Part shown: in pieces, positions 2,507 through 48,589 of the stretch
How positions within the stretch are numbered: position 1 is the stretch's first letter
How the letters are laid out: the number at the start of each line of letters is the position of its first letter
The notes under the pieces: model-generated
Databases searched by the model: none
What the model was told of the DNA's origin: nothing
What the model saw: the letters and a program-made list of their open reading frames with translations, nothing else
Source of the DNA: a virus
Strand: one strand, 5' to 3'
DNA: 64,000 bases
Virus record (IMG/VR): IMGVR_UViG_3300035565_000044
Span: 36,523 to 100,522 of that record
Made by a program: the position numbers and the translations under genes

Positions 2507-2578
2507 TGGCGCTCCTACACAGGATCGAACTGTGATTTTCAGGATTGAAAGCCTTATCCCTCACCAGAGGATAGGAGC
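2507..2578 (-). tRNA. tRNA-Glu(UUC), atypical (short D arm, weak anticodon stem)
   Basis: GCTCCTA/TAGGAGC acceptor, CTTTCAA loop, TTCGATC T-loop, CCA. Confidence 0.7.
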
Positions 2579-2712: not shown

Positions 2713-4353
2713 TTAGAGAACGTGATGGGCAATCTTCTCTACTATTTCCTTCAATGCCTTGAGCTCGTCATCTACGTTCGAGCTCTTATCGAGCATGGCT
2801 GTAAACTGACGACCAGCATGCTGATTAGGAGACACAGTCTCCGCATCACCGCCACTGGCGAACTCATGATGATGCTTCATTCCGATAGCTGCATCAGCAA
2901 TGTCTTGACCGATCAGTACAGAACGACCATCCATGATAGCGCTCAGCTTGGCGGACTTGCAAACCTCAGCAATAGTAGCTGGAGTGAAGCTATTCATGAT
3001 GCGAACTGCGTCAGAAATATCTTCACCATTCCCCAGAAGTTCACCAGAGAACGCCCGGATCATACGATCCATGGTCTTGGCGTCAGGCAAGCTAACGTTG
3101 ACGATAACGTCGAGACGCCCAGCGCGCCGAACAGCAGGTGTGATCTTTTCAGCGTGGTTCGTTGTAAATACGCTGATAATCTGGTCATTCTTGCTCAAAA
3201 CGCCGTCAAGCGTATTGAGAAGATCGTTCGTCAAATCTTGACCACGGTCATTCGTAACGCGGTCAATGTCTTCAACAAATACAAGGCAAGGCTGGAAACG
3301 CTTGGCAAACTCCAGGGTTTCACGAAGACCCTTAGGGTTATCAACCAGAATGAAAGTCCAACCGTTCTGCACAGCAAGGGCGGCGGCGGCGCGTCCGGTA
3401 AGAGACTTACCCATGCCGTATTTGCTGCTGAGAAGAACCTTGCGGCTCAAACTAATTCCAGCCTTAACGCACTCAACGCGCTTACGGATTGGAGTGAAGA
3501 GAGACATATTCAACAGACGAGTAACGTCTTCGTTGAAAATCAAATCATCAACACTGATGCCGCTAACGTCAATAAACTTGGGCTCGCTTCCCTCGATAAT
3601 GTTACCATTACCGTTGATGGAAAGGCGCAACGCCTTGGCCTTGTAGATAGACTCGCTGGCGATAAGCTTTTTCGTAAGAGCGATGAGGTCAAGAACGGCC
3701 TTGCGGTCCTTCGTCTTAACTTCAGCGTTCACATAGAATGAAAACTTTCCTGTACGACGATCCCTATCAAATCCAGTAGTGACGTTTCCGTCAATGCCAG
3801 GGAGATCGTAACGTCCAACCGGAACCATCACAGAGTCTTCTGGCTTATGGCTCAACTGCACGGTGCGCCATTCAGGCTTAACCTTGACAGGTCCGAAGAA
3901 ACCCTGGACAGTGTACGACTTAACGTCGCTAAGGTGATAAGTCTGACGCAGAGCCTTCACGAACGCCACAGCGGCGTCATAGGGATATGCGTCAAAATAC
4001 TCTTCAACTTCACACTCTTCGTTCTGCGCCCTAGCATGGTCAGCGAGAATCTTGGATGCGGCTTCCGAGGTCATCTTAATCGGAAGTCCAGGAAGCGTAA
4101 TGCCCTTGCTGTCCATGTCATGGACGATAGCAGGTTCAACCTTGTTCCACAGCATTTCCGCAAATACAGCCTTATCGCTGTCGGGAAGAGCGTCGTAAAA
4201 AGCGCTGGCGTCAGTGTGGACGCCGTTGGCGTGTCCATTAGAAAATGAATTTGCCGCAGAGGCCATAGTATTAATGTTTGCCACTCCAACTTTCCTTTCG
4301 TTACCGTACTTCTTATTCAGTCTTTCAATGATCTGAGCGTCGGTTTCAGCCAT
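2713..4353 (-). CDS. AAA+ ATPase
   Basis: Walker A-like SKYGMGKS, Walker B VFVEDID, SRH TTNHAEKITPAVRRAGRLD. Confidence 0.9.
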   Translation of the reverse strand: MAETDAQIIERLNKKYGNERKVGVANINTMASAANSFSNGHANGVHTDASAFYDALPDSDKAVFAEMLWNKVEPAIVHDMDSKGITLPGLPIKMTSEAASKILADHARAQNEECEVEEYFDAYPYDAAVAFVKALRQTYHLSDVKSYTVQGFFGPVKVKPEWRTVQLSHKPEDSVMVPVGRYDLPGIDGNVTTGFDRDRRTGKFSFYVNAEVKTKDRKAVLDLIALTKKLIASESIYKAKALRLSINGNGNIIEGSEPKFIDVSGISVDDLIFNEDVTRLLNMSLFTPIRKRVECVKAGISLSRKVLLSSKYGMGKSLTGRAAAALAVQNGWTFILVDNPKGLRETLEFAKRFQPCLVFVEDIDRVTNDRGQDLTNDLLNTLDGVLSKNDQIISVFTTNHAEKITPAVRRAGRLDVIVNVSLPDAKTMDRMIRAFSGELLGNGEDISDAVRIMNSFTPATIAEVCKSAKLSAIMDGRSVLIGQDIADAAIGMKHHHEFASGGDAETVSPNQHAGRQFTAMLDKSSNVDDELKALKEIVEKIAHHVL

Positions 4354-11573: not shown

Positions 11574-11935
11574 CGGTTCTTGTTCCTATTATATATGGTT
11601 TCTAGCGCAGTTATAGATTCGCTAGATAAGGCTTCTTTGAAAATCTCAATAAGCTTTTCATTGTTAGGAGTTTCCTTTTCGGTAGGGGCTGAGTCCCTGA
11701 GCGACACAGCCACCTTTGCCACCACGCCCCCAGCATAGTAGCACAGAGCGCAAATAACTTCGTTGTAGTCGCTCCCCCTTCTCTCCTCAGAATCAAGCCA
11801 CCTAAGGGCAGACTCTAGCATGTGTTTACGGGCGCGTCCTACGAGCGCGACCTGTTCGCTATCGCTGAGGCTATCTTGGTGGGCTGACTCCACCGCCGCA
11901 ACGATCATTTCATCAAGCTGCTTTTCAATGTCCAT
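11570..11935 (-). CDS. Hypothetical protein (start MDIEKQ)
   Basis: GAGGAG RBS; promoter TTGCAA-17-TACAAG at 11982-11954. Confidence 0.55.
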   Translation of the reverse strand: MDIEKQLDEMIVAAVESAHQDSLSDSEQVALVGRARKHMLESALRWLDSEERRGSDYNEVICALCYYAGGVVAKVAVSLRDSAPTEKETPNNEKLIEIFKEALSSESITALETIYNRNKNR

Positions 11936-11990
11936 ATTTTTCTCCTCTAACCCCTTGTATCCGTTACGGACGTTCGTTGCAAATGAGAAA

Positions 11991-12006
11991 AGTTTCACGT
12001 GGAGCA
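11991..12006. promoter_or_regulatory. parS-like site
   Basis: AGTTTCACGTGGAGCA, between divergent promoters. Confidence 0.55.
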
Positions 12007-12015
12007 TTTTCCTCG

Positions 12016-12044
12016 TTGACATGGGGTTAATTAGGGCTTAATTA
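12016..12044 (+). promoter_or_regulatory. Promoter for the Y RNA cluster
   Basis: TTGACA with AT-rich -10 (GCTTAATTA) about 17 nt downstream. Confidence 0.6.
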
Positions 12045-12054
12045 TCTCTTCACA

Positions 12055-12120
12055 GCCGGTGGCTAGGAAGTCGATTACAACGTCTTGTGAACGCTAACAT
12101 CGCCTCCGCTTTCCCCCGGC
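12055..12120 (+). ncRNA. Y RNA-like 1 (minimal)
   Basis: Closing stem GCCGG/CCGGC; scaffold TGGCTAG..CGATTACA...ATCG..GCTTTCC shared with RNAs 2 and 3; upstream of Ro60 gene. Confidence 0.7.
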
Positions 12121-12130
12121 GTCTGAATTT

Positions 12131-12268
12131 TTGTGTCGTGGCTAGGGATACGATTACATCTTCTATAGACAAGAAGACTTGCTTGGTTCGATTCCGAGCT
12201 CCCCCACCATCTACGGGGGAGTGTCCAGGGTGGACAGTCGTTATCGTCCCCGCTTTTTCCCGACGCAA
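12131..12268 (+). ncRNA. YrlA-like Y RNA 2 with circularly permuted tRNA module
   Basis: Stem TTGTGTCG/CGACGCAA; T arm CTTGG-TTCGATT-CCGAG; closed acceptor CTCCCCC-ACCATCTAC-GGGGGAG; then D-like hairpin. Confidence 0.85.
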
Positions 12269-12275
12269 CTTAATT

Positions 12276-12415
12276 CAGTGGAGTGGCTAGATTTCCGATT
12301 ACAACGATAGCTCAGTTGGTAGAGCAACAGACTTCATATCTGTAAGTCGTAGGTTCAAACCCTACTCGTTATCCCGTAAGGGGTAATCCATCGTAAATCG
12401 TTTTTCCCTCCACTG
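12276..12415 (+). ncRNA. Y RNA-like 3 carrying a non-permuted tRNA cloverleaf (UCA at the anticodon position)
   Basis: Stem CAGTGGAG/CTCCACTG; D arm GCTC-AGTTGGTA-GAGC; ACAGA-CTTCATA-TCTGT; T arm GTAGG-TTCAAAC-CCTAC; no CCA end. Confidence 0.8.
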
Positions 12416-12425
12416 CTTTAAACAG

Positions 12426-12462
12426 GCGCCGGTTCCTTCGCAAGAGGGGATCGGCGTTTTTT
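12426..12462 (+). terminator. Intrinsic terminator after the Y RNAs
   Basis: CGCCGGTTCCTT/AGGGGATCGGCG stem followed by T6. Confidence 0.8.
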
Positions 12463-12481
12463 GTTTGTAATGCGTAATTTA

Positions 12482-12536
12482 CGTCTCGCTTCATAGCGTG
12501 TCGTGACGTGCCGCAACTCACCGTAACGTAACGTCT
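12482..12536 (+). repeat. Pentamer array E (11 units), candidate guide RNA, in the Ro60 leader
   Basis: CGTCT CGCTT CATAG CGTGT CGTGA CGTGC CGCAA CTCAC CGTAA CGTAA CGTCT. Confidence 0.85.
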
Positions 12537-12553
12537 TGTAGAAAGGAAAGAAA

Positions 12554-13960
12554 ATGGCTCGTACTAATACTAGGACCAGAGCGCCACGCCCTCTGACGCA
12601 TGAAGGCGCTCCAGCCGATAGGATCACAAAAGAGCAAGAGTTGCGCCGCTCTGTGTCTTGCTGCCTGCTTTGGGAGAATGAATTCTATGAAAGCGGTGAA
12701 GACATTGCTAGCCGCATCAGGCGTCTCGCGCTGGAATGTTCTCCTCAATTTGTGTCTAATCTTGCTATTGATGTTCGCAATCGTCTTCACCTTCGTCACG
12801 TTCCTCTTTGGCTGCTTTGCGCTTTGGCTAAAACTGGAACTGGAATTCCGGGGCTTGTGGGGAATACTGTAGCACAAACCATCCAACGCCCAGACGAAAT
12901 TCCTGAGCTTTTGGCGCAGTATTACAAGGCCAATGGCGTTGCTATTAAGGATAAGGGCGGAAAGATCAACAAGATCAAGATGCCTAAGCAATTCAAGAAT
13001 GGTATCGCGCGAGCCTTCACTAAGTTCAACGAGTACTCGCTGGATAAGTGGAACAAAGACGGCGATATCTCCTTGAAATACGCCATGCGCGGCGTCCATC
13101 CAAAGCCAAAGGATGAGGCTCAGGCTCAGTTGTGGGCTAAGCTTTTGGGTAAGGAAGATAAGGAAACTGGCAAGTCTCAGAAGCTTAAGACGGCAGATAC
13201 AGTCATGTCCGCCTTGAGCGCTGGAAAAGAAAAGAAAACAGCAGAAGATAAGAAAACTGTTTTCGAGCGCCAGTTGCGTGAAGGAAAGATTGGATATTTC
13301 GCGTTATTGAAGAACTTGCGCGGGATGGTTGATGCTGGCGTTGACAGGCAGCTCGTTATTGACGCATTGCGCGCTAGGAAGGGAGACAAGGGAATTTTGC
13401 CGTTTCGCTATGTTTCCGCTGCGCGGGCGGCGCCAACGTATGAACCATATGTTGATGAAGCTCTTCAGCACGCGATTAAGAGCAGCAGGGAACTTCCAGG
13501 GCATACTTGGGTGCTTGTTGACGTTAGCGGCTCCATGGACGCCAGTATCTCTGCAAAGAGTGATCTTAGCCGGATAGACGCCGCTGCGGCTCTGGCGTCT
13601 CTGATTCACGGAGACAGAACAGTTATTACGTTCAGCAATGAAATAAAAGTTGTTCCAAGTCGCCACGGTATGGCTGGAATTGAGGCTATTCTCAAGAGCC
13701 AGATTCATAGCGGTACTGAGATGGGAAGGGCCATAAAGTATGTGAATGATCGCGCCAAGCCCCAAGATCGGCTTATCGTGATCACTGACGAACAGAGCGG
13801 GGATGTCGTCCCTGATCCAGTTTGCCAGAACGCATACGTCATAAATGTTGCGTCCTACCGCAATGGCGTCAGTTACGGCCATGGATGGAACCATATTGAC
13901 GGTTGGAGCGAAGCCGTGATAGATTACATTCATGAGCATGAGGCTACGCTTAAATTGTAG
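12554..13960 (+). CDS. rsr: Ro60/Rsr-like TROVE-domain RNA-binding protein with C-terminal VWA
   Basis: THEGAPA, LLWENEFYESG, VHPKP, ALLKNLR, LPFRY, VDVSGSM and VITDEQS motifs; adjacent Y RNAs. Confidence 0.95.
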   Translation: MARTNTRTRAPRPLTHEGAPADRITKEQELRRSVSCCLLWENEFYESGEDIASRIRRLALECSPQFVSNLAIDVRNRLHLRHVPLWLLCALAKTGTGIPGLVGNTVAQTIQRPDEIPELLAQYYKANGVAIKDKGGKINKIKMPKQFKNGIARAFTKFNEYSLDKWNKDGDISLKYAMRGVHPKPKDEAQAQLWAKLLGKEDKETGKSQKLKTADTVMSALSAGKEKKTAEDKKTVFERQLREGKIGYFALLKNLRGMVDAGVDRQLVIDALRARKGDKGILPFRYVSAARAAPTYEPYVDEALQHAIKSSRELPGHTWVLVDVSGSMDASISAKSDLSRIDAAAALASLIHGDRTVITFSNEIKVVPSRHGMAGIEAILKSQIHSGTEMGRAIKYVNDRAKPQDRLIVITDEQSGDVVPDPVCQNAYVINVASYRNGVSYGHGWNHIDGWSEAVIDYIHEHEATLKL

Positions 13961-13974: not shown

Positions 13975-13998
13975 GCTACGCCCATAGCATGCTGATAG

Positions 13999-14040
13999 GC
14001 CCGCCCCTTGATCGCACCAGGGGGCGGGTTTATTTTATTT
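13999..14040 (+). terminator. Intrinsic terminator
   Basis: GCCCGCCCC/GGGGCGGGT stem plus T-rich tail. Confidence 0.75.
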
Positions 14041-48423: not shown

Positions 48424-48499
48424 TGGTGCCAGTTGCAGGCTTCGAACCCACGACCCCCGTCTTACAAGGACGATGCTCTACCAACTGAGCTAAACTGGC
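48424..48499 (-). tRNA. tRNA-Thr(UGU)
   Basis: Canonical cloverleaf, CTTGTAA loop, CCA. Confidence 0.95.
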
Positions 48500-48514
48500 A
48501 TTCCACGTGAAATG
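48499..48514. promoter_or_regulatory. parS-like site forming the spacer between two tRNAs
   Basis: CATTCCACGTGAAATG. Confidence 0.5.
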
Positions 48515-48589
48515 GTCGGAGAAACAGGAATCGAACCTACAACCCCTAGCTCCCAAAGCTAGTGCTCTACCAGATTGAGCTATTCTCCG
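48513..48589 (-). tRNA. tRNA-Pro(UGG)
   Basis: Canonical cloverleaf, TTTGGGA loop, CCA. Confidence 0.95.

What the first reader, a model, noticed from the sequence alone, without database searches (positions are those of the whole stretch)
12055..13960. Phage Ro60 with three tandem Y RNAs: one shared scaffold, three different cargo modules
Seen: between a TTGACA promoter and a terminator lie three RNAs with unrelated but complementary closing stems and a shared core TGGCTAG-N4/5-CGATTACA...ATCG-N5/6-G[CT]TTT(T)CC. Cargo 1 is a tiny hairpin, cargo 2 a permuted tRNA elbow with ACCA trapped in a closed acceptor loop (YrlA-type), cargo 3 a full cloverleaf. Known: Rsr binds the Y RNA stem, and Y RNA tethers it to partners such as PNPase. 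Inference: a modular adaptor set directing phage Ro60 to different tRNA-recognising host proteins, or acting as decoys for tRNA-targeting defences.
Basis: partly seen in the sequence, partly recalled or inferred. Interest (0 to 1): 0.82.

Follow-up and report, generated by a model that had tools for sequence, protein, structure and literature searches.

The report
Phage Ro60 gene with three Y RNAs
A 100-kb phage encodes the RNA-binding ring protein Ro60 behind three small partner RNAs that share one docking handle but carry an open loop, a rotated tRNA look-alike and a complete tRNA shape; this last type recurs in other phages, where it is annotated as plain tRNA.

Summary
Between a promoter-like site (12016-12045) and a terminator (12424-12459) lie three RNAs. 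All carry UGGCUAG-N5-CGAUUACA ... AUCG-N5/6-GYUUU(U)CC between unrelated but complementary closing stems, upstream of a TROVE+vWA (Ro60) gene at 12554-13960.

- **The handle is a diverged YrlA handle.** Models built only from other phage Ro60 loci recover all three units with exact borders. RNA2 scores 49.6 bits (E 2e-12) as YrlA-type. The handle helices covary strongly in relatives.
- **RNA3 holds an unrotated cloverleaf.** It scores 61.9 bits on Rfam tRNA, and its acceptor end joins the handle. It has U37, a C2·A71 mismatch, C73 and no CCA. The phage uses TGA as an ordinary stop, so RNA3 is more likely a mimic than an opal suppressor.
- **The RNA3 type recurs.** I found it beside Ro60 genes in two further lineages, including gut phage csAssE-Sib, where such units are annotated tRNA-Tyr and tRNA-Lys. 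I found no paper describing it.
- **Two details fail.** The "trapped ACCA" is absent in a 96% relative, and the "tiny hairpin" of RNA1 has no support.

The adaptor or decoy function is untested. This scan has noted similar arrays on other DNA. Verdict: new variant of a known kind.

The parts
12016..12045 (+). sigma-70-like promoter (TTGACA, 18 nt, AATTAT) placing the transcript start near the first base of RNA1
   Evidence: Consensus scan, 10 of 12 matches. Both hexamers are kept in relative L023. It is a consensus match only.
12055..12122 (+). Y RNA 1, short type: closing stem GCCGG/CCGGC, handle, and an open loop of about 23 nt (YrlB-like)
   Evidence: Motif match and parse. The scaffold model R2, built from 24 relatives, hits 12055-12122 at 8.0 bits, E 0.067 in 701 nt. 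That is weak, but the borders are exact. The fold is no better than shuffles.
12132..12267 (+). Y RNA 2, YrlA type: handle, V hairpin (12159-12177), T arm (12182-12198), closed 7-bp acceptor-like stem-loop (12199-12221), D-like hairpin (12223-12237)
   Evidence: Model R1, built from 21 YrlA-type units of other phages, scores 49.6 bits, E 2.1e-12, full length. R2 scores 21.6 bits. Fold z = -3.95. There is a partial match to the permuted-tmRNA T arm and acceptor.
12278..12414 (+). Y RNA 3: handle whose YUAY motif runs straight into a complete, unrotated tRNA-like cloverleaf, mounted by its acceptor end
   Evidence: R2 hits 12278-12414 at 9.5 bits, E 0.024. Fold z = -4.25. With the cloverleaf enforced, the handle folds as in RNA1 and RNA2, 5 kcal/mol above the minimum. 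The linker helix is GAUUU/AAAUC here and UGG/CCA in L023, a compensatory change.
12301..12373 (+). tRNA-like module of RNA3: acceptor ACAACGA/UCGUUAU (C2·A71 mismatch), canonical D and T arms, anticodon loop CUUCAUA (UCA, U37), C73, no CCA
   Evidence: Rfam RF00005 61.9 bits. ARAGORN gives anticodon tca. Parse. The four differences from L023 all lie at unpaired positions (three in loops, one at position 26).
12373..12383 (+). small GNRA hairpin (CCC-GUAA-GGG) in the spacer between the tRNA 3' end and the 3' strand of the handle; an extended form competes with the acceptor 3' strand
   Evidence: Minimum-free-energy and constrained folds. It is identical in L023, so there is no covariation evidence.
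12424..12466 (+). intrinsic terminator between the Y RNA array and the Ro60 ORF
   Evidence: 16-pair stem plus T run. It is identical in L023. A similar hairpin plus T run lies between the last unit and the Ro60 gene in phage csAssE-Sib.
12554..13960 (+). Ro60/Rsr homologue (468 aa): TROVE domain plus vWA domain with a DxSxS MIDAS motif
   Evidence: Pfam TROVE 28.3 bits (cut-off 23) and VWA_2 28.8 bits (cut-off 27). PHROG 850 'RNA-binding protein', 2.7e-40. Thermus phage phiLo Ro60, PDB 9KOP/9L5Y, E 9e-23 over residues 14-461. 'DVSGS' seen in the translation.
13994..14034 (+). terminator after the Ro60 gene
   Evidence: 17-pair stem plus T run.

Best explanation
This is a phage rsr/Y-RNA module.

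**Proposed mechanism**
1. One promoter drives a transcript of about 400 nt that holds three Y RNAs and ends at an intrinsic terminator. The Ro60 gene follows, expressed by read-through or from its own start.
2. Each RNA is closed by its own terminal stem and carries the same asymmetric internal loop (5' UGGCUAG, 3' GYUUU(U)CC) followed by a short helix and UUAC. This is a diverged form of the YrlA handle (GNCGAAN0-1G and YUAY), the proposed docking site for Ro60.
3. The distal ends differ. RNA1 is an open loop. RNA2 is a rotated tRNA mimic joined to the handle on its anticodon side. RNA3 is a complete tRNA shape joined to the handle by its acceptor end. Ro60 would therefore sit at opposite ends of the tRNA 'L' in RNA2 and RNA3.
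4. The resulting particles most likely tether Ro60 to host RNA-handling proteins (PNPase-type exonucleases, enzymes that recognise tRNA) and so reshape RNA turnover in the infected cell.
5. RNA3 most likely acts as a tethered tRNA mimic, not a decoding tRNA.

**Shown here:** motifs, folds, family membership, covariation in relatives, gene linkage, and recurrence of the RNA3 type.

**Inferred:** Ro60 binding, processing of the transcript, the partner proteins and the benefit to the phage.
For: - **Three handles.** Three exact copies of the motif against 0 in shuffles, each with the same order of parts.
- **Ro60 identity.**
- **The arrangement is general.** 22 other phage Ro60 loci at 38-51% identity carry 1-4 tandem units with the handle GGYGNAG...GGUUACUUC...CGCYUGUUCC; the scaffold model finds 50 units in 21 loci. 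Isolated phages carry 5-8 units each: CcrColossus, two Brevundimonas phages and Xanthomonas MET23-P3.
- **Covariation.** In 24 relatives, 92.2% of handle cells are paired against 61.2% in shuffles and 41-50% when the partner is slid. The covariation score is 0.778 against 0.207, with 0 of 500 shuffles as high.
- **Independent models find the window's units.** R1 scores RNA2 at 49.6 bits. R2's three best hits are the three units.
- **Published motifs match.** GNCGAAN0-1G and YUAY, and two Y RNAs cut from one precursor in M. smegmatis. Thermus phage phiLo Ro60 binds two upstream Y-like RNAs and host PNPase.
- **RNA3 as a mimic.** It has U37, C2·A71, C73 and no CCA. TGA ends 29% of the phage's ORFs, and reading TGA as sense gains no coding coverage.
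- **The same layout occurs elsewhere.** L266 and csAssE-Sib carry UUU and GUA loops, one with G33. L268, L269, L272, L274 and L277 carry loops that drift between UGG, UAG and an 8-nt loop while the stems covary; three of these (L269, L274, L277) also show a second tRNA-Pro(UGG) gene elsewhere in the fetched stretch.
Against: - There are no expression, processing or binding data.
- Rfam's YrlA model (RF02553) gives no hit in the window even at E 10, although it hits a canonical relative at 52 bits.
- The handle lacks the literal CGAA.
- RNA1 and RNA3 match the scaffold model only weakly (8.0 and 9.5 bits).
- RNA1 has no fold signal of its own.
- Only one close relative (L023) could be compared, so there is little covariation evidence inside this lineage.
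- The RNA3 cloverleaf is as good as real tRNAs by score, and its anticodon loop is identical in L023, so a decoding role is not excluded.
Confidence: 0.75

Rival explanations
1. RNA3 is first of all a working tRNA gene (an opal suppressor). Its leader and trailer happen to pair like a Y RNA handle, and RNase P plus 3' trimming release a tRNA that reads UGA.
For: - Rfam tRNA scores it 61.9 bits, within the range of the phage's six other tRNAs (50-71 bits).
- All tertiary-contact nucleotides are present by inspection.
- The acceptor stem is 7 positions long, and M. smegmatis YrlA with a 7-bp stem is cut by RNase P and receives CCA.
- The anticodon loop is identical in L023.
- Plain amber-suppressor tRNAs lie near the Ro60 gene in L008 and L009.
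Against: - Position 37 is U, where working tRNAs have a purine. There is a C2·A71 mismatch, C73 and no CCA.
- The first two acceptor bases belong to the conserved handle motif.
- The handle motifs and closing stem are kept, with a compensatory linker change, in L023.
- TGA is an ordinary stop in 45 of 157 ORFs, with no gain from reading it as sense.
- In the parallel L268 group the loop drifts between UGG, UAG and 8 nt.
Confidence: 0.1
2. The tRNA-shaped units are baits or decoys. Ro60 holds an exposed anticodon arm (RNA3) or acceptor/elbow (RNA2) to soak up, or report, host tRNA-cutting defence nucleases, or to feed cut tRNAs to repair enzymes.
For: - The acceptor-mounted layout leaves the anticodon arm free.
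- In csAssE-Sib and L266 the mounted mimics carry Lys(UUU) and Tyr(GUA) loops. From my own knowledge, not checked here, these are the tRNAs cut by PrrC/PARIS and by a retron-linked nuclease.
- A Ro60-like protein of phage Bas63 counters the Ppl defence.
- In Salmonella, rsr and the Y RNAs sit in the RtcB tRNA-repair operon (abstract of PMC7790460).
Against: - In this window the loop is UCA with U37, which matches no ordinary host elongator tRNA.
- The loop drifts in the L268 group.
- There is no RtcB or other repair gene beside the locus. The neighbours are replication genes.
- No experiment bears on this reading.
Confidence: 0.12
3. The three structures are a cis-acting leader of the Ro60 mRNA. 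Ro60 binds them to control termination at 12424-12459, giving autoregulation, and they do not act as free RNAs.
For: They lie on the same strand directly upstream of the gene, with a terminator in between.
Against: - In L020 and L025 the units lie downstream of the Ro60 gene.
- Arrays of 5-8 units with different cargo are far more than an attenuator needs.
- Known Y RNAs are stable free RNAs.
Confidence: 0.03

Closest known systems
YrlA / YrlB Y RNAs with Rsr (Salmonella, M. smegmatis, mycobacteriophages, CcrColossus; Chen et al. 2014, PMC4201824; Rfam RF02553)
   Same: They are encoded next to Ro60 on the same strand, with several Y RNAs from one transcript. They have a terminal stem plus a conserved 5' motif and YUAY. 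RNA2 has the order V hairpin, T arm, closed acceptor-like stem, D arm. RNA1 resembles the short YrlB type.
   Different: The handle is diverged (UGGCUAG instead of GNCGAAN0-1G, CGAUUACA instead of GGUUACUUC), and RF02553 does not detect it. RNA2 has a degenerate D arm. RNA3 has no counterpart in the published YrlA/YrlB descriptions I could read.
Deinococcus radiodurans Yrn1
   Same: According to Chen et al. 2014, its tRNA-like part is in the unrotated orientation, with an 'anticodon arm' between D-like and T elements. In that respect it is like RNA3.
   Different: Yrn1 has only partial D features, a 6-nt loop and no variable region. RNA3 is a complete cloverleaf scoring 62 bits on the tRNA model and shares its handle with a YrlA-type RNA in the same operon. 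No sequence comparison with Yrn1 was made here.
Thermus phage phiLo Ro60 with Yrl1 and Yrl2 (PMC12135203; PDB 9KOP, 9L5Y)
   Same: A phage Ro60 with Y-like RNAs just upstream. The protein matches this one at E 9e-23. It forms complexes with host PNPase.
   Different: There are two RNAs with a CGAA bulge. No tRNA-shaped cargo is reported in the passages I read.
Ordinary phage tRNA genes, including suppressor tRNAs
   Same: The RNA3 core scores like a tRNA and is called as one by ARAGORN. The equivalent units in csAssE-Sib are annotated tRNA-Tyr and tRNA-Lys.
   Different: The core is enclosed in a Ro60-type handle, has U37, has no CCA, and has a mismatch in the acceptor stem. The phage does not recode TGA.
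Two-piece (permuted) tmRNA
   Same: The T arm, 3' acceptor strand and ACCA of RNA2 align to the permuted tmRNA model at 21.7 bits.
   Different: The score is far below the gathering score of 47. There is no tag reading frame and no G·U alanine identity pair, and the ACCA is not kept in L023.

Membership tests
Ro60 / Rsr (TROVE + vWA) | TROVE domain above Pfam's cut-off | tested here: met
   PF05731 scores 28.3 bits against a cut-off of 23. PHROG 850 gives 2.7e-40. phiLo Ro60 structures match at E 9e-23 over residues 14-461.
Ro60 / Rsr (TROVE + vWA) | C-terminal vWA domain with a MIDAS motif (DxSxS) | tested here: met
   VWA_2 scores 28.8 bits against a cut-off of 27. 'DVSGS' is present in the translation.
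Ro60 / Rsr (TROVE + vWA) | Ring fold that binds Y RNA | not tested
   No structure was predicted. Binding needs an experiment.
YrlA (Rfam RF02553; Chen et al. 2014) | Match to the curated Rfam model | tested here: not met
   No RF02553 hit in 11950-12560 even at E 10. The same model hits canonical units of Xanthomonas phage MET23-P3 at 52.3 and 37.5 bits, itself below the gathering score of 69.
YrlA (Rfam RF02553; Chen et al. 2014) | Match to a model of YrlA-type units from other phage Ro60 loci | tested here: met
   R1, built from 21 units with none from the window, scores RNA2 at 49.6 bits, E 2.1e-12, positions 1-138 of 138. The L023 copy scores 54 bits.
YrlA (Rfam RF02553; Chen et al. 2014) | Within 4 kb of the Ro60 gene and on the same strand | tested here: met
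   The units lie 140-500 nt upstream of the ATG at 12554, on the + strand.
YrlA (Rfam RF02553; Chen et al. 2014) | GNCGAAN0-1G motif near the 5' end | tested here: not met
   All three units have UGGCUAG at that place. Relatives have GGCGAAG, GGCGUAG or GGUGUAG. The window's version is one base shorter and lacks CGAA.
YrlA (Rfam RF02553; Chen et al. 2014) | Conserved YUAY at the start of the V region | tested here: met
   UUAC is present in all three units (inside CGAUUACA). The motif is described.
YrlA (Rfam RF02553; Chen et al. 2014) | T arm, then closed acceptor-like stem-loop, then D arm | tested here: met
   RNA2 only: seen in the fold and the model alignment. The D arm is degenerate (UGUCC-AGGGU-GGACA).
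YrlA (Rfam RF02553; Chen et al. 2014) | Bound by Rsr/Ro60 in cells | not testable with these tools
   Needs immunoprecipitation.
tRNA (RNA3 core) | Cloverleaf above the Rfam gathering score, with conserved tertiary nucleotides | tested here: met
   RF00005 scores 61.9 bits against a gathering score of 29. U8, A14, G18G19, U54U55C56, A58 and G15:C48 were read from the sequence.
tRNA (RNA3 core) | Purine at position 37 and a fully paired acceptor stem | tested here: not met
   The loop is CUUCAUA, so position 37 is U. C2·A71 is a mismatch.
tRNA (RNA3 core) | The genome needs the anticodon (UCA reads UGA) | tested here: not met
   TGA ends 45 of 157 long ORFs. Coding coverage is 86.4% under table 11 and 87.5% with TGA as sense, no larger a gain than with TAG as sense.
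tRNA (RNA3 core) | Matured to a free CCA 3' end and aminoacylated | not testable with these tools
   No CCA is encoded (C73 is followed by CCGUA). The 3' side continues into the handle.
Acceptor-mounted tRNA Y RNA (class proposed here) | A complete unrotated cloverleaf follows the YUAY(UUC) motif directly, inside a Ro60-type handle, beside a Ro60 gene, in more than one lineage | tested here: met
   Eight aligned units in three lineages (A4), plus two more units in the GenBank relative csAssE-Sib. R2 scores the L266 unit at 32 bits and csAssE-Sib units at 29.8 and 13.3 bits. A TROVE ORF lies directly downstream in L266, and Ro60-like ORFs lie nearby in L268, L269, L272, L274 and L277.

The most novel reading that the evidence does not exclude
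Phage Ro60 arrays hold a previously undescribed class of Y RNA in which a whole tRNA shape is mounted on the Ro60 handle by its acceptor end. This leaves the anticodon arm free as bait for host proteins that read or cut anticodon loops, such as defence nucleases, modification enzymes or repair enzymes. The YrlA-type partner in the same operon presents the opposite end of the tRNA shape. Together they would be a two-orientation tRNA display system that phages use against tRNA-directed immunity.
Probability: 0.15. Interest if true: 0.75.

Novelty: new variant of a known kind. Interest (0 to 1): 0.55.

Why it matters
Ro60 and Y RNAs are conserved from bacteria to humans, yet what the variable part of a Y RNA recruits is known in only a few cases.

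- **Natural series for finding partners.** Phage loci like this one keep one handle and vary the display: open loop, rotated tRNA mimic, whole tRNA held by its acceptor end. This gives a direct way to find the partners.
- **Annotation.** Some genes annotated as tRNA next to phage Ro60 genes are Y RNA modules. Examples are tRNA-Tyr and tRNA-Lys in csAssE-Sib, tRNA-Gln in CcrColossus and tRNA-Ser in Brevundimonas phage Kikimora. This inflates phage tRNA counts and creates false 'suppressor tRNA' calls, such as the UCA one here.
- **Origin of YrlA mimics.** The acceptor-mounted form also suggests how YrlA-type mimics could have arisen from captured tRNAs.

Tried and rejected
- **Loose pattern scans.** Scanning the viral and metagenome collections with GGCTAG-N4-6-CGATTACA returned 115 and 120 stretches. 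None had a second copy or the 3' motif, so they are chance hits.
- **TGA recoding.** Rejected.
- **tRNA-Sec.** ARAGORN's 'SeC' label rests on the anticodon alone. The variable region is 5 nt and the acceptor stem 7 bp, so this is not a selenocysteine tRNA.
- **CtrA box.** TTAA-N7-TTAA in the promoter spacer (12027-12041) gives 4 sites in the window against 1.8 expected, with 16 of 100 shuffles reaching 4. L023 has CTAA at the first half. It is not above chance.
- **Model false positives.** R1's other window hits (48463-48559 and others) are T-arm/D-arm pairs of neighbouring true tRNAs, the artefact Chen et al. warned about.
- **My own unit finder.** The heuristic was too noisy and was replaced by covariance models.
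- **Reviews.** Two Wolin-lab reviews (PMC10870794, PMC6047535) are not held, so I cannot exclude that they mention larger arrays or tRNA-holding units.
Full report
**What the window is**

The window is bases 36523-100522 of a complete 100,522-bp virus record with direct terminal repeats. The locus sits after a replication module: DnaB-like helicase, replication initiator, primase and a methyltransferase-like ORF.

**Checking the observation**

- TGGCTAG-N4-6-CGATTACA occurs three times on the + strand, at 12060, 12139 and 12284. None was found in 100 shuffles of the window.
- A parse gives the same order of parts in all three units: closing strand, TGGCTAG, N5, CGAT, TACA, cargo of 19, 84 or 86 nt, ATCG, N5-6, G[CT]TTT..CC, complementary closing strand.
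- The three closing stems are unrelated in sequence but each is complementary.
- A promoter-like site lies at 12016-12045 and a strong terminator at 12424-12459.
- RNA2 and RNA3 fold far better than their shuffles (z = -3.95 and -4.25). RNA1 does not (z = -0.52).

**The protein**

ORF 12554-13960 (468 aa) is a Ro60 homologue.
- It has TROVE and vWA domains above Pfam's cut-offs.
- It matches PHROG 850 'RNA-binding protein'.
- It matches the solved Ro60 of Thermus phage phiLo at E 9e-23 over nearly its whole length.
- It keeps a DVSGS MIDAS motif.
- Its nearest proteins in isolated phages are those of Caulobacter, Brevundimonas and Xanthomonas phages, at about 48% in a search seeded with the 86%-identical relative P0002.

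**Relatives of the RNAs**

A protein-seeded scan of viral contigs gave 23 Ro60 loci. One, L023, is 96% identical and carries the same three RNAs. The other 22, at 38-51% identity, have no TGGCTAG/CGATTACA motif. Instead they carry tandem units with a clearly related handle: closing stem, GGYGNAG, a helix of about 9 bp ending in GGUU, ACUUC, cargo, the return strand of the helix, CGCYUGUUCC, and the closing stem.

Chen et al. 2014 describe two conserved YrlA motifs, GNCGAAN0-1G near the 5' end (proposed Rsr contact) and YUAY at the start of the V region. The relatives' GGCGAAG/GGCGUAG and UUAC fit these. The window's UGGCUAG and UUAC are the same elements in a diverged form.

**Independent tests of membership**

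I aligned 21 YrlA-type units and 24 short units from the relatives, with none from the window (A2, A3).
- RNAalifold finds the closing stem, the inner helix, the T arm, the closed acceptor-like stem and the D arm. Compensatory changes occur in 24 of 27 and 16 of 17 pairs.
- On A3, 92.2% of cells are paired against 61.2% in shuffles and 41-50% with slid partners. The covariation score is 0.778 against 0.207, and 0 of 500 shuffles reach it.
- Model R1 (YrlA type) hits window 12132-12267 at 49.6 bits, E 2.1e-12, full length.
- Model R2 (handle only), run without filters on 11900-12600, gives as its three best hits exactly the three units: 12133-12267 (21.6 bits), 12278-12414 (9.5 bits) and 12055-12122 (8.0 bits).

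The last two scores are weak, as expected for a diverged handle, but the borders are exact. Rfam's own YrlA model (RF02553) does not see the window at E 10. It sees a canonical phage relative only below its threshold, at 52 bits against 69. The window is therefore a divergent member, not a textbook one.

**Details that fail**
- The ACCA in the 9-nt loop of RNA2's closed stem is UCA in an 8-nt loop in L023, so it is not a conserved feature. The stem itself is 7 bp, the length that makes M. smegmatis YrlA an RNase P substrate, so processing remains possible.
- RNA1's proposed inner hairpin loses a pair in L023. The short units of relatives have open, A-rich loops.

**RNA3**

Its core (12301-12373) scores 61.9 bits on Rfam tRNA, like the phage's real tRNAs. 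ARAGORN reads anticodon UCA. The order is the normal one: acceptor, D, anticodon, T, acceptor.

The first two acceptor bases are the AC of the handle's UUAC. A spacer of about 17 nt, containing a CCC-GUAA-GGG hairpin, joins the 3' end to the handle. With the cloverleaf enforced, the handle folds as in RNA1 and RNA2, 5 kcal/mol above the minimum.

Several points argue against a working suppressor:
- Position 37 is U, C2·A71 is a mismatch, the discriminator is C73, and no CCA is encoded.
- TGA ends 45 of 157 long ORFs, and reading it as sense gains no coverage.
- The handle of RNA3 is kept in L023 with a compensatory swap of the linker helix, GAUUU/AAAUC against UGG/CCA. The four tRNA differences all lie at unpaired positions.

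Among about 70 Y units in 20 other Ro60 loci, no unit outside this lineage holds a strong tRNA hit.

**Is the RNA3 type unique?**

It is not. A pattern joining GGTTACTTC to a D arm 6-10 nt later found six relevant viral contigs.
- In L266 the unit 4082-4212 (R2 32 bits) holds a Lys-like cloverleaf (loop CUUUUAA, Rfam 59.7 bits). It is the last of three tandem units, 84 nt upstream of a 544-aa TROVE protein.
- Its 88% relative is the published gut phage csAssE-Sib. There, three units precede the 'Ro sixty-related protein'. One is YrlA-type, and two enclose the annotated tRNA-Tyr (with G33) and tRNA-Lys.
- L268, L269, L272, L274 and L277 come from tRNA-rich phages that each encode a distant Ro60-like ORF. 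Each carries a unit with a 7-bp acceptor stem directly after GGUUACUUC. The anticodon stems and acceptor stems covary while the loop drifts: UGG, UAG, an 8-nt loop. Three of these stretches (L269, L274, L277) also show a second, separate tRNA-Pro(UGG) gene.

This drift is what one expects of a mimic, not of a decoding tRNA. The closest published precedent I could read is Deinococcus Yrn1, whose partial tRNA-like part has the same orientation. [quoted passage not shown] Searches of the held literature found no description. A 2024 preprint only guesses that some tRNA genes beside the Ro60-like gene of phage Bas63 may be Y RNAs.

**How it most likely works**

The shared handle docks each RNA on Ro60, and the distal modules differ. 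In RNA2 the handle replaces the anticodon side, so the elbow and sealed acceptor end point away from Ro60. In RNA3 the handle holds the acceptor end, so the anticodon arm points away. The RNAs are made from one promoter, in excess of the Ro60 mRNA because of the terminator. By analogy with Rsr-Y RNA-PNPase and the phiLo complex, they tether Ro60 to host RNA enzymes. These steps are inferred; none was tested.

**What the scan saw before**

Earlier notes of this scan describe the same stretch and many similar arrays on other DNA. They include a tRNA-Pro(UGG) cloverleaf in a Y handle and an ochre-like one judged to be drift. I reached the same reading from my own searches before reading those notes. 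One of them gave me the RF02553 lead, which I tested.

**Verdict**

This is a real phage Ro60/Y-RNA operon.
- RNA1 and RNA2 are new, diverged members of known types.
- RNA3 belongs to a recurrent, apparently unpublished acceptor-mounted tRNA variant.
- The function is open.

Noticed in passing
L262 (Caulobacter phage CcrColossus, NC_019406.1) 261-1456; L263 611-1445; L264 654-1462; L265 823-1420: Isolated phages carry 5-8 tandem Y RNA units upstream of their Ro60 gene, with several cargo types (short, YrlA-type, T-arm-only). The annotated tRNA-Gln of CcrColossus and tRNA-Ser of Brevundimonas phage Kikimora overlap YrlA-type units and look like misannotations.
   Followed up: partly
L278 (phage csAssE-Sib, OR575929.1) 697-1115: Three Y units precede the 'Ro sixty-related protein'. 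The annotated tRNA-Tyr (866-938, with G33) and tRNA-Lys (1011-1084) each lie inside a Ro60-type handle.
   Followed up: partly
L008 1897-1972 and L009 4325-4400: Ordinary CCA-ended tRNAs with a CUA (amber-reading) anticodon lie within about 1 kb of the Ro60 gene in two other phage loci, outside any handle. Together with the UCA loop here, that makes stop-reading anticodons near 3 of 24 Ro60 loci. This may be chance.
   Followed up: no
window 12027-12041: A perfect TTAA-N7-TTAA (CtrA-box consensus) lies in the spacer of the Y RNA promoter. The window holds 4 such sites against 1.8 expected (16 of 100 shuffles reach 4), and L023 has a mismatch here, so it is not above chance.
   Followed up: yes
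window 12470-12550: The leader between the terminator and the Ro60 start codon is rich in short ACGT/CGT-containing repeats (GTAACGTAACGT, GTCGTGACGTG). Another first-reader note calls this an 'array'. I did not examine it.
   Followed up: no
window 2510-2578 (- strand): Rfam tRNA hit of 34.4 bits that ARAGORN does not call, next to tRNA-Met at 2337-2412. It may be a degenerate tRNA.
   Followed up: no
L020 4396-4811 and L025 4394-4882: In these two phage loci the Y RNA array lies downstream of the Ro60 gene instead of upstream.
   Followed up: partly
L007 2677-2748, L022 2755-2831, L021 2371-2446, L006 67-132, L265 1285-1355: ARAGORN repeatedly calls a false tRNA that starts at the first base of a YrlA-type unit, reading the handle as acceptor plus D arm and the V hairpin as the anticodon arm. 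Rfam scores these at 30 bits or less.
   Followed up: partly
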